A DNA stretch of 20,000 nucleotides. It comes from an uncultured virus (IMG/VR IMGVR_UViG_3300041405_000400) (taxonomy: Duplodnaviria; Heunggongvirae; Uroviricota; Caudoviricetes). The position numbers and the translations under genes were made by a program. The stretch lies in IMG/VR virus record IMGVR_UViG_3300041405_000400; one strand, given 5' to 3'. A model generated the notes under the pieces. That model was not told where the DNA came from. It made no database searches and was given only the letters and a program-made list of their open reading frames with translations. Positions 2,574 through 20,000 of this stretch are shown here, in pieces (the stretch's first letter is position 1; every line of letters begins with the position of its first letter).

Positions 2574-3680
2574 TCAATCAAACGCCCCGGCGCGATAGAG
2601 TCTTTCCAAATTATGGGCTGACCTAAGGTGCTTCTCCGTGCGATTCAAGAAGCTGCTGATGGAACCATTTCTCAGTGAAAAGCAGCAGTCTGGCCGCACA
2701 TGACGCTGGGTAAGCATGCTGGTTGAGGTGGTGGTAATCAACACCTGGGCAGTTGACTCAAGCGCACGCTGAAAAGTAGACCCAGAGGCTAGATGATGAA
2801 GACCATCCATGTCATCGATGAAGATGAACGATGCCTGCTTGCGCTCTGACTCAGCTGTCTTCATCCAGAAAAAGAAGGTGATCAGCGTCCTTACCCCAAC
2901 TGACGTGTTGCGCAGCAAATTCATGGTTTGGTTGCCGATTCGCTGCCCTATGAATGCTTCGCCGTCCAAATTTTCTGCGGTCAAGCGGTAGCTCAGCCCG
3001 CACTCACCCAGGAACGAGACTAGCTCATCGAGCCAGCCATTTTTCAGGATAGCGGCGCCAAGGTCTCTTTTCCCCTGGGTAAACCCAATGTAAGAATTGA
3101 CATCGACCGCGCTGAAATACAGCATATTTTCTACGGAGCTGATAAATTTCTTAAAGCATTCATTCGCTGGGTTTTTTTCGAGCAGCGAGTTTTTGTGAAT
3201 GTATGAGGCGATTGAAATGGTAGAGCTGGAAAGATCTCGCTTCAAGTGCTCGGCACCATCTGCGAGGATGGTGGCGTTTCCACCAAAACGGCGATCAACT
3301 TCCGCGTAAAGGCCCCCATCGATTATTATGCGTTCGTACACGAGATCTCCTGATGCTGAACGAGCGTACGCATAGGTCAGATCCTGGTGATCAAATCGGA
3401 ATTGATAGGTGAATTCCATCATCTCAGTCCCACTGCCGAGGCTCATGTCAGAATCGTGGCTGCCAATTACGTGACTATTCGTAAGGTGGCGAGTCAGGTC
3501 GAAAATCGCCATTCCCAAAGCGGTTTTTCCTGCACCTGAGTTGGCGAGGACAATGCCAGTCTTCACCAGCCGATTCGTAACCGACGCCTCGCTGAAATCT
3601 TGGCGACCCACAGCGCCGAAGTCCAAAAACAACATTTCATCAAAGCATCGAAATCCGGTCACGCTGAAATAATGGAGCAT
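2574..3680 (-). CDS. ABC-superfamily/AAA_21 (AbiEii-like) ATPase with degenerate motifs
   Basis: N-terminal FSVTGFRCF, Walker A-like ANSGAGKT, signature-like SVGVR, Walker B FIFIDD, QVLITTT, RPDC and C-terminal LRSAHNLERLYRAGAF. Confidence 0.8.
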   Translation of the reverse strand: MLHYFSVTGFRCFDEMLFLDFGAVGRQDFSEASVTNRLVKTGIVLANSGAGKTALGMAIFDLTRHLTNSHVIGSHDSDMSLGSGTEMMEFTYQFRFDHQDLTYAYARSASGDLVYERIIIDGGLYAEVDRRFGGNATILADGAEHLKRDLSSSTISIASYIHKNSLLEKNPANECFKKFISSVENMLYFSAVDVNSYIGFTQGKRDLGAAILKNGWLDELVSFLGECGLSYRLTAENLDGEAFIGQRIGNQTMNLLRNTSVGVRTLITFFFWMKTAESERKQASFIFIDDMDGLHHLASGSTFQRALESTAQVLITTTSTSMLTQRHVRPDCCFSLRNGSISSFLNRTEKHLRSAHNLERLYRAGAFD

Positions 3681-9638: not shown

Positions 9639-9665
9639 AGTGAAAAATCCAGGCTGGGCGGCTGA

Positions 9666-9872
9666 TTAAGGTTCGTACTTTTGGGTAAAGTCGTTGTTGT
9701 CCAGCGCCCATTGAGCGGCTTCGCGGGTTTGGTAGTATTCTTCCGATTCGCGAGAGCATGGCCCTGAATCATCAAAGGTGCCGATGTAAAAGCCAGCCCC
9801 GCTTTCGAGGACTTTGAGCGGTAGCCGCTGTTTCAGGAATTCGTAAGCCAGTTTGCCATGAGGAACGTGCAT
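9666..9872 (-). CDS. Small conserved plasmid/ICE-type hypothetical protein
   Basis: 68 aa with GAGG RBS. The motif PLKVLESGAGFYIGT...GPCSRESEEYY resembles small proteins I recall from Proteobacterial ICEs and plasmids. Confidence 0.8.
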   Translation of the reverse strand: MHVPHGKLAYEFLKQRLPLKVLESGAGFYIGTFDDSGPCSRESEEYYQTREAAQWALDNNDFTQKYEP

Positions 9873-9902
9873 GTCGTAAACACCTCAATAATTTATATAG
9901 AT

Positions 9903-9931
9903 ATTATACCAAGAAACGCCATCTATGTCAA
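9903..9931 (-). promoter_or_regulatory. Consensus sigma70 promoter
   Basis: Minus strand TTGACA (9931-9926), 17 nt, TATAAT (9908-9903): a perfect consensus. Confidence 0.85.
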
Positions 9932-9984
9932 TTGTGCTGACTTGAGTGGCGCTATTTAATGTGCCTTTGTGGCAAACTTGGCGA

Positions 9985-18804: not shown

Positions 18805-19335
18805 TTAAACGCGTATGGCTGAGATTTCCCGACAAAGATTATTGACTGAGGTTTGCATGGCGCTGGCTCTCAGGCGCAGTTGATCCACTTTACCTTTGAT
18901 TTTTTCGTCACTGCTTCCGGCCATCTCCAGCAGCGTGACCAGAATTTCCTTGGCTTGTCGGTGGTTTTTGACATCCAAGAATTCGGTAGTCTGGTGCTTT
19001 AGAGCCCCGACCACATCAACGTAAAAATCATGTGCCTCTTGGCTGGAAATGTGTTTTGGCCATGTATCGTTTCGACCAAATCGCTCCATGAATTCCACAT
19101 CCAGTTTCAGCAAGTCAACGTCTGCGTGCAGGATCTGCATTTCTTCCGGCTTGAAATCCCCTACGTAACCCCAGGACATACCGGCATCGAGAATAAGTTT
19201 TCCGTTCTTGCGCTTGCAAATCCTGGTCGAGAAGTTGGTGTAATGAAGGCATTGGTTGAGCGTGACCGCCAGCGCGACGATCATGCCTTCTGCAATTGCA
19301 TTTCCTTCCCGATCAATGCCGTTTGGATTAGTCAT
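18805..19335 (-). CDS. Hypothetical protein
   Basis: 176 aa with GAGGA RBS. Confidence 0.8.
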   Translation of the reverse strand: MTNPNGIDREGNAIAEGMIVALAVTLNQCLHYTNFSTRICKRKNGKLILDAGMSWGYVGDFKPEEMQILHADVDLLKLDVEFMERFGRNDTWPKHISSQEAHDFYVDVVGALKHQTTEFLDVKNHRQAKEILVTLLEMAGSSDEKIKGKVDQLRLRASAMQTSVNNLCREISAIRV

Positions 19336-19381
19336 GATGCATTCCTCGCCTGAATCCCGATAAATTGAGTTGAGTCGAAAT

Positions 19382-19405
19382 AAAAAAGAGGGCCGAAGCC
19401 CCCTT
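19382..19405 (-). terminator. Intrinsic terminator of the ~270-nt ncRNA candidate
   Basis: Minus strand AAGGGGGC-UUCG-GCCCUCUU followed by more U residues, with a C(UUCG)G tetraloop. Confidence 0.85.
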
Positions 19406-19653
19406 AGGTGCGTAATATCAAATTCTGTACGGGCGAGCCGCTGCCGGAGACACGTCTTGGGCGCAAAGCACCATTGTTAAATGGCTGATCTGTTCAGTCG
19501 AAACAACTCCCTTTTCGAGAAAGGGTCTCATTCCCATGAGCCTAGAACGATGCACCTACTAGCACGCTTTCGCTTAAGAGTTGGTTACGTTCATTACGCC
19601 GTTACCATACAGCTAACTGATCAGAAACCTTGCCGAACTTCTACTACGCTTGA
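19382..19653 (-). ncRNA. ~270-nt structured non-coding RNA candidate with two predicted pseudoknots
   Basis: Own promoter and terminator, no credible ORF. Nested helices 19485-19490/19619-19624, 19504-19509/19578-19583, 19509-19514/19520-19525, 19527-19531/19536-19540 and 19542-19545/19559-19562. Long-range pairings 19405-19411/19552-19558 and 19410-19416/19593-19599. Confidence 0.7.
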
Positions 19654-19659
19654 GATTTA

Positions 19660-19688
19660 ATAATAACAAAACGGCAGCCTGAAGTCAA
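19660..19688 (-). promoter_or_regulatory. Sigma70-type promoter driving the ~270-nt RNA candidate
   Basis: Minus strand TTGACT (19688-19683), 17 nt, TATTAT (19665-19660). Confidence 0.65.
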
Positions 19689-19758
19689 TATTTACCTGAA
19701 ATTAAGGCGCCAATAGTCGTCAATGCGACATATGTCAAGTTTTTAACACTGACATTTG

Positions 19759-19787
19759 TTGACTATTTCACTAGGTATCGTTATATT
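19759..19787 (+). promoter_or_regulatory. Sigma70-type promoter
   Basis: TTGACT (19759-19764), 17 nt, TATATT (19782-19787). Confidence 0.6.
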
Positions 19788-19853
19788 TTCCCTTAGCGCT
19801 CTGTTCTGTGCGCCACCCACCATATTCGGAATTCCTCACAGTCGGAGCAATTG

Positions 19854-20000
19854 ATGCAGTGGTTCAACAACTGTAATTTCCAGTACAAATTTCAGATTTC
19901 ATTTTGCATGGTTTCCCTCATTCTGATCGGCATTTTTGGTTGGGCCTTCTGGGACAACGCAGAGAAAATGTCGATGAAAAGCCTTGATACTCAGCTCATG
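19854..20000 (+). CDS. N-terminus of a probable methyl-accepting chemotaxis protein or membrane sensor (truncated by the window)
   Basis: GGAG RBS. MQWFNNCNFQYKFQISFCMVSLILIGIFGWAFW... fits the MxWFxNxxxxxKxxxxF plus TM1 pattern of chemoreceptors. Confidence 0.55.
   Translation, partial: MQWFNNCNFQYKFQISFCMVSLILIGIFGWAFWDNAEKMSMKSLDTQLM

What the first reader, a model, noticed from the sequence alone, without database searches (positions are those of the whole stretch)
19382..19688. Second independent ncRNA gene (~270 nt) whose 3' tail can pair into two internal regions (double pseudoknot)
Seen: a minus-strand TTGACT-17-TATTAT promoter and a UUCG-loop terminator enclose about 270 nt with no credible ORF. 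A core helix CUGAUC/GAUCAG (19624-19619/19490-19485) encloses CAACUC/GAGUUG, which closes a junction of three small hairpins. The 12 nt just before the terminator (5'-AUUACGCACCUA-3', 19416-19405) are complementary to two separate internal segments, GCGUAAU (19599-19593) and UAGGUGC (19558-19552, mostly the loop of the CUAG hairpin). Each match is 7 bp and the two overlap by 2 nt. Two adjacent 7-bp long-range matches are unlikely by chance in 270 nt. Inference: a compact, tertiary-folded RNA such as a ribozyme, protein scaffold or antitoxin RNA. I do not recognise the family.
Basis: partly seen in the sequence, partly recalled or inferred. Interest (0 to 1): 0.82.

Follow-up and report, generated by a model that had tools for sequence, protein, structure and literature searches.

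The report
New folded RNA module, jumbo phages
This promoter-to-terminator stretch of an uncultured soil phage encodes a real folded RNA of an undescribed family, whose 143-base core also sits just behind the nuclear-shell gene of two giant Pseudomonas phages; the proposed double pseudoknot is no better than chance, and the RNA's job is unknown.

Summary
The "double pseudoknot" is not above chance. An equivalent double 7-bp site occurs in 845 of 5000 shuffles, and natural variants and homologs do not keep it.

What holds up is a 143-nt three-helix module (window 19628-19486). It has a closing helix H1, a long arm H2 and a two-tier hairpin H3. The long arm is capped by an invariant stretch, CCAAC-N-CUUAAG-N-GAAAGCG.

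- The module is the only part of the 20-kb window with DNA similarity to any GenBank phage record. That match is Pseudomonas jumbo phage Psa21, at 88-91% over 97 nt.
- A covariance model finds a third, diverged copy in phage phiHQ.
- In both phages it lies directly after the chimallin stop codon, inside a swapped-in non-coding cassette that close relatives lack.
- 23 of 42 model pairs keep pairing through changes on both sides.
- It matches no Rfam family, tRNA or tmRNA. The internal ORF is not conserved.

Best reading: a portable, highly expressed, structured phage RNA that acts as RNA. Its function is unknown. Interest is moderate.

The parts
19660..19688 (-). sigma-70-type promoter: -35 TTGACT (19688-19683), 17-nt spacer, extended -10 TG-TATTAT (19665-19660)
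   Evidence: 10 of 12 consensus positions, TG present. Relative X8 has changes at 19673, 19674, 19678 and 19689 around the hexamers but none inside them. The start site near 19653 is inferred, not mapped.
19382..19653 (-). Predicted primary transcript, about 270 nt
   Evidence: Inferred from the promoter and terminator. One 219-nt contig from an RNA-seq library (X23) lies wholly inside it, at 19419-19635. This is only a weak hint of transcription.
19486..19628 (-). Conserved three-helix core ('module A'), 143 nt
   Evidence: The model built from this stretch alone finds Psa21 at 98.6 bits. The two-sequence model finds phiHQ at 27.9 bits, E 2.7e-6. 23 of 42 pairs changed on both sides and stayed paired. 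All three sequences give the same topology in independent MFE folds.
19615..19625 (-). H1, 5' strand (UCUGAUCAGUU); pairs with 19499-19489
   Evidence: The A19621.A19493 mismatch becomes A-U in X8 and X23. C19619-G19495 is U-A in Psa21. 7 of 11 pairs covary.
19489..19499 (-). H1, 3' strand (GACUGAACAGA)
19597..19603 (-). H2, 5' strand (AACGGCG); pairs with 19552-19546 (CAUCGUU)
   Evidence: The C19598.A19551 mismatch becomes U-A in X2, X8, X23 and Psa21. G19600-C19549 is U.G in Psa21. phiHQ has AACCUG/CAGGUU. The window's own MFE prefers a different local fold.
19546..19552 (-). H2, 3' strand (CAUCGUU)
19563..19584 (-). Sequence-invariant cap of the long arm: CCAAC-U-CUUAAG-C-GAAAGCG-U-G
   Evidence: Identical in the window, Psa21 and phiHQ apart from the three N positions. 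It holds the palindrome CUUAAG. The surrounding distal-arm pairs do not covary (1 of 11).
19500..19534 (-). H3, a two-tier hairpin (GGAAUGA/UUGUUUC around CCCUUU/AAAGGG)
   Evidence: U19521-A19513 becomes C-G in X8 and X23. The sequence is entirely different but the architecture is the same in Psa21 and phiHQ. 10 of 13 pairs covary.
19406..19485 (-).
   Evidence: No similarity to the 3' regions in Psa21 or phiHQ. The tail can pair with 19599-19592, with 19558-19552, or, in the MFE, with the 5' leader at 19649-19642. None of these is supported beyond chance.
19382..19405 (-). Intrinsic terminator: 8-bp stem, UUCG loop, U run
18805..19335 (-). Downstream co-oriented ORF (176 aa, no known family). 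No promoter-like site lies between the terminator and its start codon.
   Evidence: No match in Pfam, PHROGs, PADLOC or the protein atlas. It is context only and is not shown to belong to the RNA.

Best explanation
The locus is a real, separately transcribed non-coding RNA gene of a large uncultured phage: a strong host-type promoter, about 270 nt of RNA, and an intrinsic terminator.

Its functional unit is not the proposed double pseudoknot. It is a 143-nt three-helix module ('A', 19628-19486) made of:
- a closing helix H1;
- a long arm H2, capped by an invariant CCAAC-N-CUUAAG-N-GAAAGCG stretch;
- a two-tier hairpin H3 whose sequence is free but whose shape is kept.

The module is portable. 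The same module sits directly after the chimallin (nuclear-shell) stop codon in the nucleus-forming Pseudomonas phages Psa21 and phiHQ, inside non-coding cassettes that their closest relatives lack.

Inferred mechanism: the RNA is made in large amounts early in infection, from a near-consensus promoter here and as the 3' UTR of the chimallin gene there. It works as RNA, with H1-H3 presenting the invariant cap and junction nucleotides to a partner, a protein or another RNA (possibly a second copy, through the CUUAAG palindrome).

Shown: the RNA-level conservation, the fold topology, the absence of coding potential and the accessory distribution. Inferred: the transcript ends, high expression, action in trans and the existence of a partner.

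My odds: real structured RNA about 0.9; partner-binding RNA acting in trans about 0.4.
For: Conservation:
- Of the whole 20-kb window, only 19532-19628 matches any of 50,697 phage records, namely Psa21 (88-91% identity).
- A model built from the window sequence alone scores Psa21 at 98.6 bits; the next best hit is 14.7 bits.
- The two-sequence model scores phiHQ at 27.9 bits (E 2.7e-6 in the loci, 1.3e-4 against its whole genome); the next best is 7.4 bits.

Structure:
- 23 of 42 pairs changed on both sides and stayed paired.
- 88.9% of cells are paired, against 28-37% when the partners are slid.
- Independent MFE folds of the three sequences give the same topology (z -2.09, -1.80, -4.52).
- Natural variants at 94-99% identity behave as the fold predicts: U19521-A19513 becomes C-G, A19493>U repairs an H1 mismatch, and C19598>U repairs an H2 mismatch.

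Not coding:
- 5 of 5 substitutions in the MGMRPF ORF are non-synonymous, including ATG>CTG at the start codon, and X2 carries a frameshift.
- The opposite-strand ORF differs at nearly every changed codon, and the sense frames of Psa21 carry stops.

Context:
- The upstream Psa21 gene is chimallin (Pfam PF25677, 1053 bits).
- The 367-nt Psa21 insert replaces 20 nt of phage D6, and the module is absent from the whole genomes of D6 and RVTF4.
- The phiHQ cassette replaces a different non-coding stretch that is kept in 56 phage records.

Expression hint: a 219-nt contig from an RNA library lies entirely within the predicted transcript.

Precedent: phiKZ makes UTR-derived ncRNAs from the 3' UTR of PHIKZ298 and from a 5' UTR fragment of p40 that ends at a premature terminator (PMC8545117, passages read).
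Against: - There are only three independent lineages, so no R-scape-grade statistics are possible.
- The alignment used for the pair counts was fitted to the model. For phiHQ a different H2 register (AACCUG/CAGGUU) is at least as good as the model's, so the H2 count of 5 of 7 is soft.
- The distal arm under the invariant cap does not covary (1 of 11 pairs) and is partly broken in phiHQ.
- The window's own MFE uses a different local fold in place of H2.
- No transcript ends are mapped. The RNA-library contig could be DNA carry-over and comes from a single study.
- In close relatives the RNA gene is not clearly more conserved than its flanks: 10 changes in about 269 nt against 13 in about 277 nt in X8 (my count).
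- No partner is known.
- Because the downstream gene has no promoter of its own, a role in cis is a live alternative.
Confidence: 0.45

Rival explanations
1. Cis-acting transcript element. The module is a leader or UTR device that controls what happens at the terminator downstream of it (attenuation, riboswitch-like sensing or RNA-mediated antitermination), or that sets the stability or processing of its host transcript. It would not be a trans-acting RNA.
For: - In all three cases it lies upstream of an intrinsic terminator that is followed by a co-oriented gene.
- In the window the 176-aa gene has no promoter-like site between the terminator and its ATG, so it depends on read-through.
- The phiKZ 5' UTR RNA of p40 has the same layout (PMC8545117, passages).
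Against: - The distance from the module to the terminator varies: 81 nt in the window, about 230 nt in Psa21 and about 330 nt in phiHQ. The intervening sequence is unrelated.
- The Psa21 terminator predates the insert, because D6 and RVTF4 have it too.
- The downstream genes are unrelated: an unknown 176-aa protein here and an RNA polymerase subunit there.
- No alternative pairing with the terminator was found.
Confidence: 0.2
2. Self-cleaving or otherwise catalytic RNA (a new ribozyme class) that processes the transcript it sits in.
For: - Invariant unpaired nucleotides are held by helices that are free to covary.
- It sits at a gene end or UTR in phages.
- Earlier notes of this scan report ribozyme-linked orphan RNAs in jumbo phages (unchecked).
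Against: - It matches no ribozyme family in Rfam, even at E<=10.
- No joints or preferred ends were seen, but only contigs were laid, and contigs cannot show them.
- There is no biochemical evidence.
Confidence: 0.1
3. One reading: a tertiary-folded RNA whose 3' tail forms two adjacent pseudoknot helices with 19599-19593 and 19558-19552.
For: - Both 7-bp complementarities exist.
- C19598>U keeps a U.G pair in the first helix.
- Psa21 has UAUUACG in its 3' region.
Against: - 845 of 5000 shuffles show an equivalent double site, and the duplex energies are within the shuffle range.
- U19406>C gives an uncompensated A.C mismatch in X2 and X8.
- By my estimate (no call), a shared 7-mer between an 81-nt and a 224-nt region is expected about once by chance.
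- phiHQ conserves neither partner segment.
- G19599-G19597 are also claimed by H2, which covaries.
- The MFE pairs the tail with the 5' leader instead.
Confidence: 0.1
4. Passenger or remnant of a mobile element, such as a degenerate group I intron or a non-autonomous IS200/605-type element with an omega-RNA, carried between phages with no function of its own.
For: - It is present or absent among close relatives, and both chimallin-linked copies join at the same place, right after TAAG.
- The window and Psa21 cores are 88-91% identical although the rest of the window has no DNA match to Psa21.
- The neighbouring module B has a stretch that, from recall, resembles the P4/J6 motifs of group I introns.
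Against: - No Intron_gpI match at E<=10.
- The helix order does not fit the group I topology: the H1 3' strand follows H3 directly.
- It does not interrupt any ORF; chimallin is full length, 1-627 of 627 profile positions.
- No TnpB above the cut-off and no Y1 transposase anywhere in Psa21.
- Covariation argues for selection on the fold.
Confidence: 0.06
5. A small protein gene: the 39-codon MGMRPFLEK ORF, or the 59-codon ORF on the opposite strand.
For: Both ORFs are open in the window.
Against: - 5 of 5 natural substitutions are non-synonymous, the start codon is lost in X2, X8 and X23, and X2 has a frameshift.
- Psa21 has a stop after 7 codons at the equivalent place, and its opposite-strand frame has no ATG start (alternative starts were not checked) and differs at most changed codons.
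Confidence: 0.02

Closest known systems
UTR-derived ncRNA candidates of phage phiKZ (3' UTR of PHIKZ298, about 100 nt; 5' UTR of p40, about 180 nt, ending at a premature terminator). Gerovac et al. 2021, mBio, PMC8545117 (passages read).
   Same: They are structured, ORF-less RNAs of a jumbo Pseudomonas phage, made either as the 3' end of an mRNA or as a promoter-proximal RNA that stops at a terminator before the next gene. These are the two contexts in which module A is found. Their function is also unknown.
   Different: They are simple two-stem-loop RNAs at other loci. No sequence or model relation was found. Module A is a three-helix junction shared across unrelated phages. Nothing about the PHIKZ054 (chimallin) 3' UTR turned up in term searches for 'PHIKZ054' and related words in that paper or in PMC8244752.
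GOLLD (RF01998) and ROOL (RF03087), large orphan structured RNAs of phages and prophages (properties recalled; both are in the Rfam copy searched)
   Same: They are phage-borne, intricately folded and of unknown function, and are often next to tRNA genes. Module B, the neighbour of A in Psa21 and phiHQ, also sits next to tRNAs in RP13 and in one IMG/VR contig.
   Different: Module A is 4-6 times smaller and matches neither model. The window has no tRNA.
Group I self-splicing introns of jumbo phages (Rfam RF00028; their presence in phiKZ-like RNA polymerase genes is recalled)
   Same: Insertions that are present or absent among close relatives, pseudoknotted RNA, and location next to an RNA polymerase gene.
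   Different: There is no model match, the helix order is wrong, no ORF is interrupted and no splice-site features were identified.
HK022 put RNAs and other RNA antiterminators (recalled, not tested)
   Same: This is a works-like candidate for the cis reading: a folded nascent RNA between a promoter and a terminator that could act on the transcribing polymerase.
   Different: put RNAs are about 70-nt two-hairpin elements. There is no sequence or structural likeness, and no evidence here of any effect on termination.
   Same: Small pseudoknotted RNAs linked to phage-host conflict.
   Different: Those are tandem repeats next to a toxin gene. Here there is no tandem repeat and no toxin or defence protein nearby.

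Membership tests
Any Rfam 15 family (4227 models) | Score at or above the family's gathering threshold | tested here: not met
   0 matches in the whole window. At E<=10 only two irrelevant weak hits appear in 19000-20000. Nothing relevant appears on the Psa21 element. In the phiHQ and RP13 loci only the tRNAs match.
tRNA / tmRNA | Cloverleaf or tRNA-like domain detectable by ARAGORN | tested here: not met
   0 genes in the window and 0 in the Psa21 and phiHQ loci. A D-arm-like local fold in the window is contradicted by Psa21, where it has a C.U mismatch, and by the covarying H2.
Group I intron | Match to the core model (P3-P9) | tested here: not met
   No RF00028 hit at E<=10, or at E<=1.
Group I intron | Interrupts a gene, with exons that join to restore it | tested here: not met
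   Chimallin is complete before the element (profile positions 1-627 of 627). The intron-less relative D6 ends at the same stop codon. In the window the module follows a promoter.
Group I intron | Helix order with P3 and P7 forming the core pseudoknot | tested here: not met
   The H1 3' strand follows H3 with no intervening strand. This compares the sequence with the recalled group I topology.
IS200/605 element or its omega-RNA | TnpB (or IscB) and/or a Y1 transposase in the same genome | tested here: not met
   In Psa21, PF07282 gives only a 15.7-bit hit, below the cut-off and with 3 internal stops. PF01797 gives no match. The window's own genome could not be tested because none is held.
Type III toxin-antitoxin antitoxin RNA | Tandem repeats of about 30-40 nt beside a toxin endoribonuclease gene | tested here: not met
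   No tandem repeat in 19200-20000. Neighbouring proteins have no Pfam or PADLOC match.
Riboswitch or attenuator leader | A conserved aptamer coupled to an expression platform that competes with the terminator | tested here: inconclusive
   A conserved structured domain lies upstream of a terminator in 3 of 3 cases. However, the linker length and sequence are unrelated (81 to about 330 nt), and no competing pairing was found.
Independent bacterial-type sRNA gene | Own promoter and intrinsic terminator, with no conserved ORF | tested here: met
   for the window. This is not met in Psa21 or phiHQ, where the element has no promoter of its own and starts 1-3 nt after the stop codon. Transcript ends were not mapped.
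New family 'module A' (defined here) | H1, H2 and H3 topology plus the invariant CCAAC-N-CUUAAG-N-GAAAGCG cap | tested here: met
   Met by the window, Psa21 and phiHQ. No hit in D6, RVTF4, PS119XW, RP13 or one 88-kb IMG/VR contig, all searched whole.

The most novel reading that the evidence does not exclude
Module A is one of a set of interchangeable, RNA-only accessory cassettes that unrelated jumbo phages trade. A preferred docking site lies immediately after the chimallin stop codon, where A+B, 'module C' or nothing is found in otherwise near-identical genomes. The cassette would be a new class of portable functional RNA, for example an RNA decoy or counter-defence RNA, or a new ribozyme. 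It would be produced at the very start of infection, riding on the most strongly expressed early transcript.
Probability: 0.2. Interest if true: 0.8.

Novelty: new variant of a known kind. Interest (0 to 1): 0.55.

Why it matters
Nucleus-forming jumbo phages shield their DNA, so much of their conflict with the host plays out at the RNA and protein level. Yet almost nothing is known about their non-coding RNAs. This finding gives a concrete, testable object:
- a 143-nt fold with an invariant 22-nt cap;
- natural 'with' and 'without' phage pairs (Psa21 against D6; phiHQ against PS119XW);
- a stand-alone version with its own promoter.

It also points to the few bases after the chimallin stop codon as a site where different non-coding cassettes have been exchanged. 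That could guide a search for further functional phage RNAs. If the RNA proves to be only a stabilising UTR structure, the result is ordinary.

Tried and rejected
Homolog hunts:
- IMG/VR was scanned with 8 patterns.
  - For module A, only Psa21's own record was real: 1 of 1, 1 of 38, 1 of 18, 1 of 30 (filtered by BLAST), 1 of 1.
  - For module B, one search gave 0 because my pattern was mis-specified and excluded even Psa21. It was corrected (1 of 1, Psa21). In one search, 2 of 30 loci were real (Psa21 and L151), judged by BLAST.
- JGI metagenome contigs: 0 loci, 27 loci, all chance (longest match 38 nt at 82%).
- Genome contigs: 5 loci, none with a model hit.
- Plasmids: no match.
- phiHQ's copy used as a BLAST query found only itself.

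Sequencing runs:
- The 20 unlaid runs with small shares are not used as evidence of habitat or spread.
- X9 covers only 19222-19405 and says nothing about the RNA.
- Parts of the stretch that a run does not cover are not interpreted.

Ideas dropped:
- A duplicated chimallin 3' end flanking the Psa21 insert. It was suggested by the MAFFT alignment but not recovered by BLAST.
- A tRNA-like D-arm (contradicted by Psa21).
- A mimic of a CRISPR repeat, and an RsmA/CsrA sponge. Both rested on recalled consensus sequences with no convincing match and were not tested further.
- An omega-RNA.
- An antitoxin RNA.
It is a consensus promoter followed by an ORF of about 70 codons that I read from the folded sequence (no ORF or translation call was run on it). 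Its fold z-score is -0.66, and its only DNA matches are to the promoter stretch of T5-like phages.

Neighbours: the 176-aa protein downstream has no informative relative.

My first shuffle test used a looser definition (773 of 5000) and was replaced.
Full report
WHAT IS AT THE COORDINATES

On the minus strand there is a TTGACT-17-TATTAT promoter at 19688-19660, with TG before the -10. An AAGGGGGC-UUCG-GCCCUCUU hairpin followed by a U run lies at 19405-19382. No ORF longer than 59 aa lies between them on either strand. The 279-nt stretch folds somewhat better than shuffles (-89.4 kcal/mol, z -2.36, 4 of 200 shuffles as good).

The window itself looks like the early region of a large phage:
- PHROG hits to a DNA polymerase, a NinI-like phosphatase and an AlkB-like protein.
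- Protein-level matches only to phages of 150-735 kb.
- Three perfect and five 11-of-12 sigma-70 consensus promoters.
- No whole genome is held for it.
- The one run holding the whole stretch is labelled rhizosphere metagenome and may be its source.

IS THE DOUBLE PSEUDOKNOT MORE THAN CHANCE? NO.

Dinucleotide shuffles contain 1.5 on average. In 845 of 5000 shuffles, two such helices share a strand of 16 nt or less with partners at least 20 nt apart. Duplex energies between the core segments and the 3' region are matched or beaten by 450 and 787 of 1000 shuffles in the window, and by 844 and 740 of 1000 in Psa21.

The minimum-energy fold pairs the same tail with the 5' leader (19649-19642) instead. 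The tail therefore has three possible partners, and none of them is distinguished by the data.

HOMOLOGS

Megablast of all 20 kb against 50,697 phage records finds one thing only. Window 19532-19618 matches Pseudomonas phage Psa21 at 90.8%; with blastn the match is 97-99 nt at 87.9%. Plasmids give nothing.

Pattern scans of IMG/VR, JGI metagenome contigs and GTDB genome contigs returned only Psa21's own record. The other 37, 17, 29, 27 and 5 loci were chance matches.

Laying four public runs on 19000-20000 gave:
- Two close relatives covering the locus, with roughly 1-6% of letters differing (X2: contigs spanning the whole stretch; X8: 19355-19930).
- One 219-nt contig from an RNA-seq library (X23, 12 differences) spanning 19419-19635 only. 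It lies entirely inside the predicted transcript. This is a weak hint of expression, from a single study, and DNA carry-over is not excluded.

A covariance model built from the window sequence alone, with my structure (R1), scored Psa21 at 98.6 bits over its full length; the next hit scored 14.7 bits. The two-sequence model R2 then found a third, diverged copy in Pseudomonas phage phiHQ (27.9 bits; E 2.7e-6 in the loci, 1.3e-4 against its 300-kb genome; next best 7.4 bits).

R2 found nothing in any of the following:
- the whole genomes of D6, RVTF4, PS119XW and RP13;
- an 88-kb IMG/VR contig;
- the HPP-Temi locus;
- 29 other loci.

Over the whole module, identity is 70% between the window and Psa21, and 44-49% to phiHQ.

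THE FOLD THAT THE COMPARISON SUPPORTS

The module spans 19628-19486 and has these parts:
- H1: 19625-19615 with 19499-19489.
- A long arm: H2 (19603-19597 with 19552-19546), then a distal part ending in the stretch 19584-19563.
- H3: 19534-19500, a two-tier hairpin.

On the three-sequence alignment, 23 of 42 pairs changed on both sides and stayed paired. By helix the counts are H1 7 of 11, H2 5 of 7, distal arm 1 of 11 and H3 10 of 13. 88.9% of cells are paired, against 28-37% when the partners are slid by 1-3 columns, and 0 of 500 shuffles reach the observed values.

That alignment was fitted to the model, so it leans towards the structure. However, independent single-sequence MFE folds of the three cores give the same topology (z -2.09, -1.80, -4.52). 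For phiHQ an alternative H2 register, AACCUG/CAGGUU, is also fully paired.

Within-clade variants behave as the fold predicts:
- U19521-A19513 becomes C-G in X8 and X23.
- A19493>U turns the A.A mismatch in H1 into A-U.
- U19626>A would add an A-U pair with U19488 to H1. This is my own reading; one search did not tabulate that pair.
- C19598>U, in X2, X8, X23 and Psa21, turns the C.A mismatch in H2 into U-A.

One change, U19579>C in X2, also breaks a pair in my distal arm.

51 of 147 columns are invariant in all three sequences. They are concentrated in AGUUA...CGACU at the base of H1 and in CCAAC-N-CUUAAG-N-GAAAGCG-N-G. The distal-arm pairs do not covary and are partly broken in phiHQ, so that region is conserved as sequence, not as helix. 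CUUAAG is a palindrome. That it mediates dimerisation is speculation.

NOT CODING

In the MGMRPFLEK ORF, all 5 natural substitutions are non-synonymous. They include ATG>CTG at the start codon in X2, X8 and X23, and X2 also has a 1-nt deletion in codon 22. The two changes that are compensatory in the H3 hairpin are F>S and K>E in the ORF.

The 59-codon ORF on the opposite strand differs from its Psa21 counterpart at nearly every changed codon. In Psa21 that frame has no ATG start (alternative starts were not checked), and the Psa21 sense frames carry stops.

GENOMIC CONTEXT IN THE OTHER PHAGES

In Psa21 the upstream gene is chimallin, the nuclear-shell protein (PF25677, 1053 bits, complete). 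The downstream gene is an RNA polymerase subunit.

Psa21 and its relative D6 (90% identity over the C-terminal 199 aa of chimallin that I used as query) are collinear up to TAAG, the stop codon plus one base. They are collinear again from the shared terminator onwards. Between those points Psa21 has 367 nt where D6 has 20 nt. RVTF4 is like D6. The module begins 1-3 nt after the stop codon and has no promoter of its own. The terminator belongs to the chimallin gene, not to the insert.

phiHQ and its near-identical relatives PS119XW and HPP-Temi are likewise collinear up to TAAG. After that point phiHQ carries the module plus about 165 nt more. The others carry a different non-coding stretch of about 165 nt ('C'), which matches 56 phage records at 83-100% identity (nearly all phiKZ-like, 54 of them over at least 80% of its length).

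So in two chimallivirus lineages the same spot holds alternative non-coding cassettes.

The sequence that follows the module in Psa21 and phiHQ ('B') has these properties:
- It is 73% identical between the two phages over 145 nt.
- Its stems covary, by my reading of the alignment.
- It recurs without module A directly 5' of a tRNA-Leu gene in Ralstonia phage RP13 and in an IMG/VR contig that carries six tRNAs in 1.4 kb.
- The window has no module B.

WHAT IT IS NOT

- No Rfam family.
- No tRNA or tmRNA.
- Not a group I intron: no model hit, the wrong helix order, no interrupted gene.
- Not an IS200/605 element or omega-RNA, as far as Psa21 can show.
- No tandem repeats and no defence or toxin protein nearby.

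In print, I found phiKZ UTR-derived ncRNA candidates (PMC8545117, passages). I found nothing on the chimallin 3' UTR there or in the phiKZ dRNA-seq paper (PMC8244752, passages). My literature searches were made, and supplements were not opened.

Earlier notes of this scan describe other orphan folded RNAs in jumbo phages. None shares sequence with this one.

HOW IT MOST LIKELY WORKS

Shown:
- an RNA-level conserved three-helix fold with an invariant cap;
- accessory, cassette-like distribution;
- placement behind a near-consensus promoter here, and at the end of the chimallin gene there. The phiKZ dRNA-seq paper assigns that gene both early- and middle-type promoter motifs (passages).

Inferred: the RNA is abundant early in infection and acts as RNA. 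The helices present the cap and junction nucleotides to a partner, a protein, another RNA or a second copy. I put this at about 0.4.

The main rival, at about 0.2, is a role in cis on the transcript that carries it: read-through of the following terminator, stability or processing. In its favour, the window's downstream gene has no promoter of its own. Against it, the linkers to the terminators are unrelated and of very different length, and the Psa21 terminator predates the insert.

NOVELTY AND LIMITS

This is an undescribed RNA family with three known lineages. It belongs to the broad, known category of orphan structured phage RNAs. The cassette behaviour at the chimallin stop codon is the less expected part.

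The limits are real:
- only three lineages;
- a model-fitted alignment;
- no mapped transcript ends;
- no function.

Noticed in passing
L001 about 3155-3310 (Psa21); L130 about 1495-1660 (phiHQ); L131 about 1405-1570 (Ralstonia phage RP13); L151 about 790-687, minus strand (IMG/VR contig): A second undescribed RNA module ('B') follows module A in Psa21 and phiHQ (73% identity over 145 nt). It also occurs alone directly 5' of a tRNA-Leu gene in RP13 and in an IMG/VR tRNA cluster. By my reading of the alignment it has covarying stems (for example AUGUGAAC/GUUCACAU, ACACAC/GUGUGU, AUGAUAC/GUAUCAU; CCCAGU/ACUGGG, CUCGAU/AUCGAG, CCAGAU/AUCUGG) and two apparent pseudoknots (GCAGG..GGUC with GACCUGC; loop ACGGU with the 3' AAACCGU). 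It has no Rfam match. A local likeness to the group I intron P4/J6 motifs is recalled only, and the helix order does not fit group I.
   Followed up: partly
L132 2095-2270 (PS119XW), and 56 phage records: phiKZ-like phages keep a conserved non-coding stretch of about 165 nt ('module C', 83-100% identity) immediately after the chimallin stop codon. phiHQ has A+B in its place, and D6 and RVTF4 have almost nothing there. This makes the site a hot spot for alternative non-coding cassettes. Rfam gives no hit apart from terminator-like weak matches.
   Followed up: partly
window 9640-9940, minus strand: A perfect TTGACA-17-TG-TATAAT promoter (9931-9903) is followed by an unannotated small ORF of about 70 codons with a ribosome-binding site (MHVPHGKLAYEF...), which I read by eye from the folded sequence. 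It is not an ncRNA (fold z -0.66). The promoter stretch is 91-94% identical to promoter regions of 268 mostly T5-like phage records.
   Followed up: partly
window, whole: The window has an unusual density of consensus sigma-70 promoters: three at 12 of 12 (18781, 9931, 2460) and five at 11 of 12. This is typical of a host-polymerase-dependent early region of a large phage.
   Followed up: no
window 2574-3680, minus strand: This 368-aa protein (phrog_38223) has full-length matches at 29.6% identity. In the phage collection the only matches are three Vibrio cyclitrophicus elements of about 10 kb named 'PE'.
   Followed up: no
L151 about 1200-800, minus strand: About 400 nt of ORF-poor sequence lies between a tRNA-Arg gene and module B in the IMG/VR tRNA cluster. 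To my eye it looks GC-balanced and stem-rich, and it may be a further structured RNA. It was not analysed.
   Followed up: no
L001 3086-3328 (PSA21_57): The annotated 80-aa 'hypothetical protein' PSA21_57 lies antisense across modules A and B of the non-coding insert. It is probably a spurious gene call.
   Followed up: no
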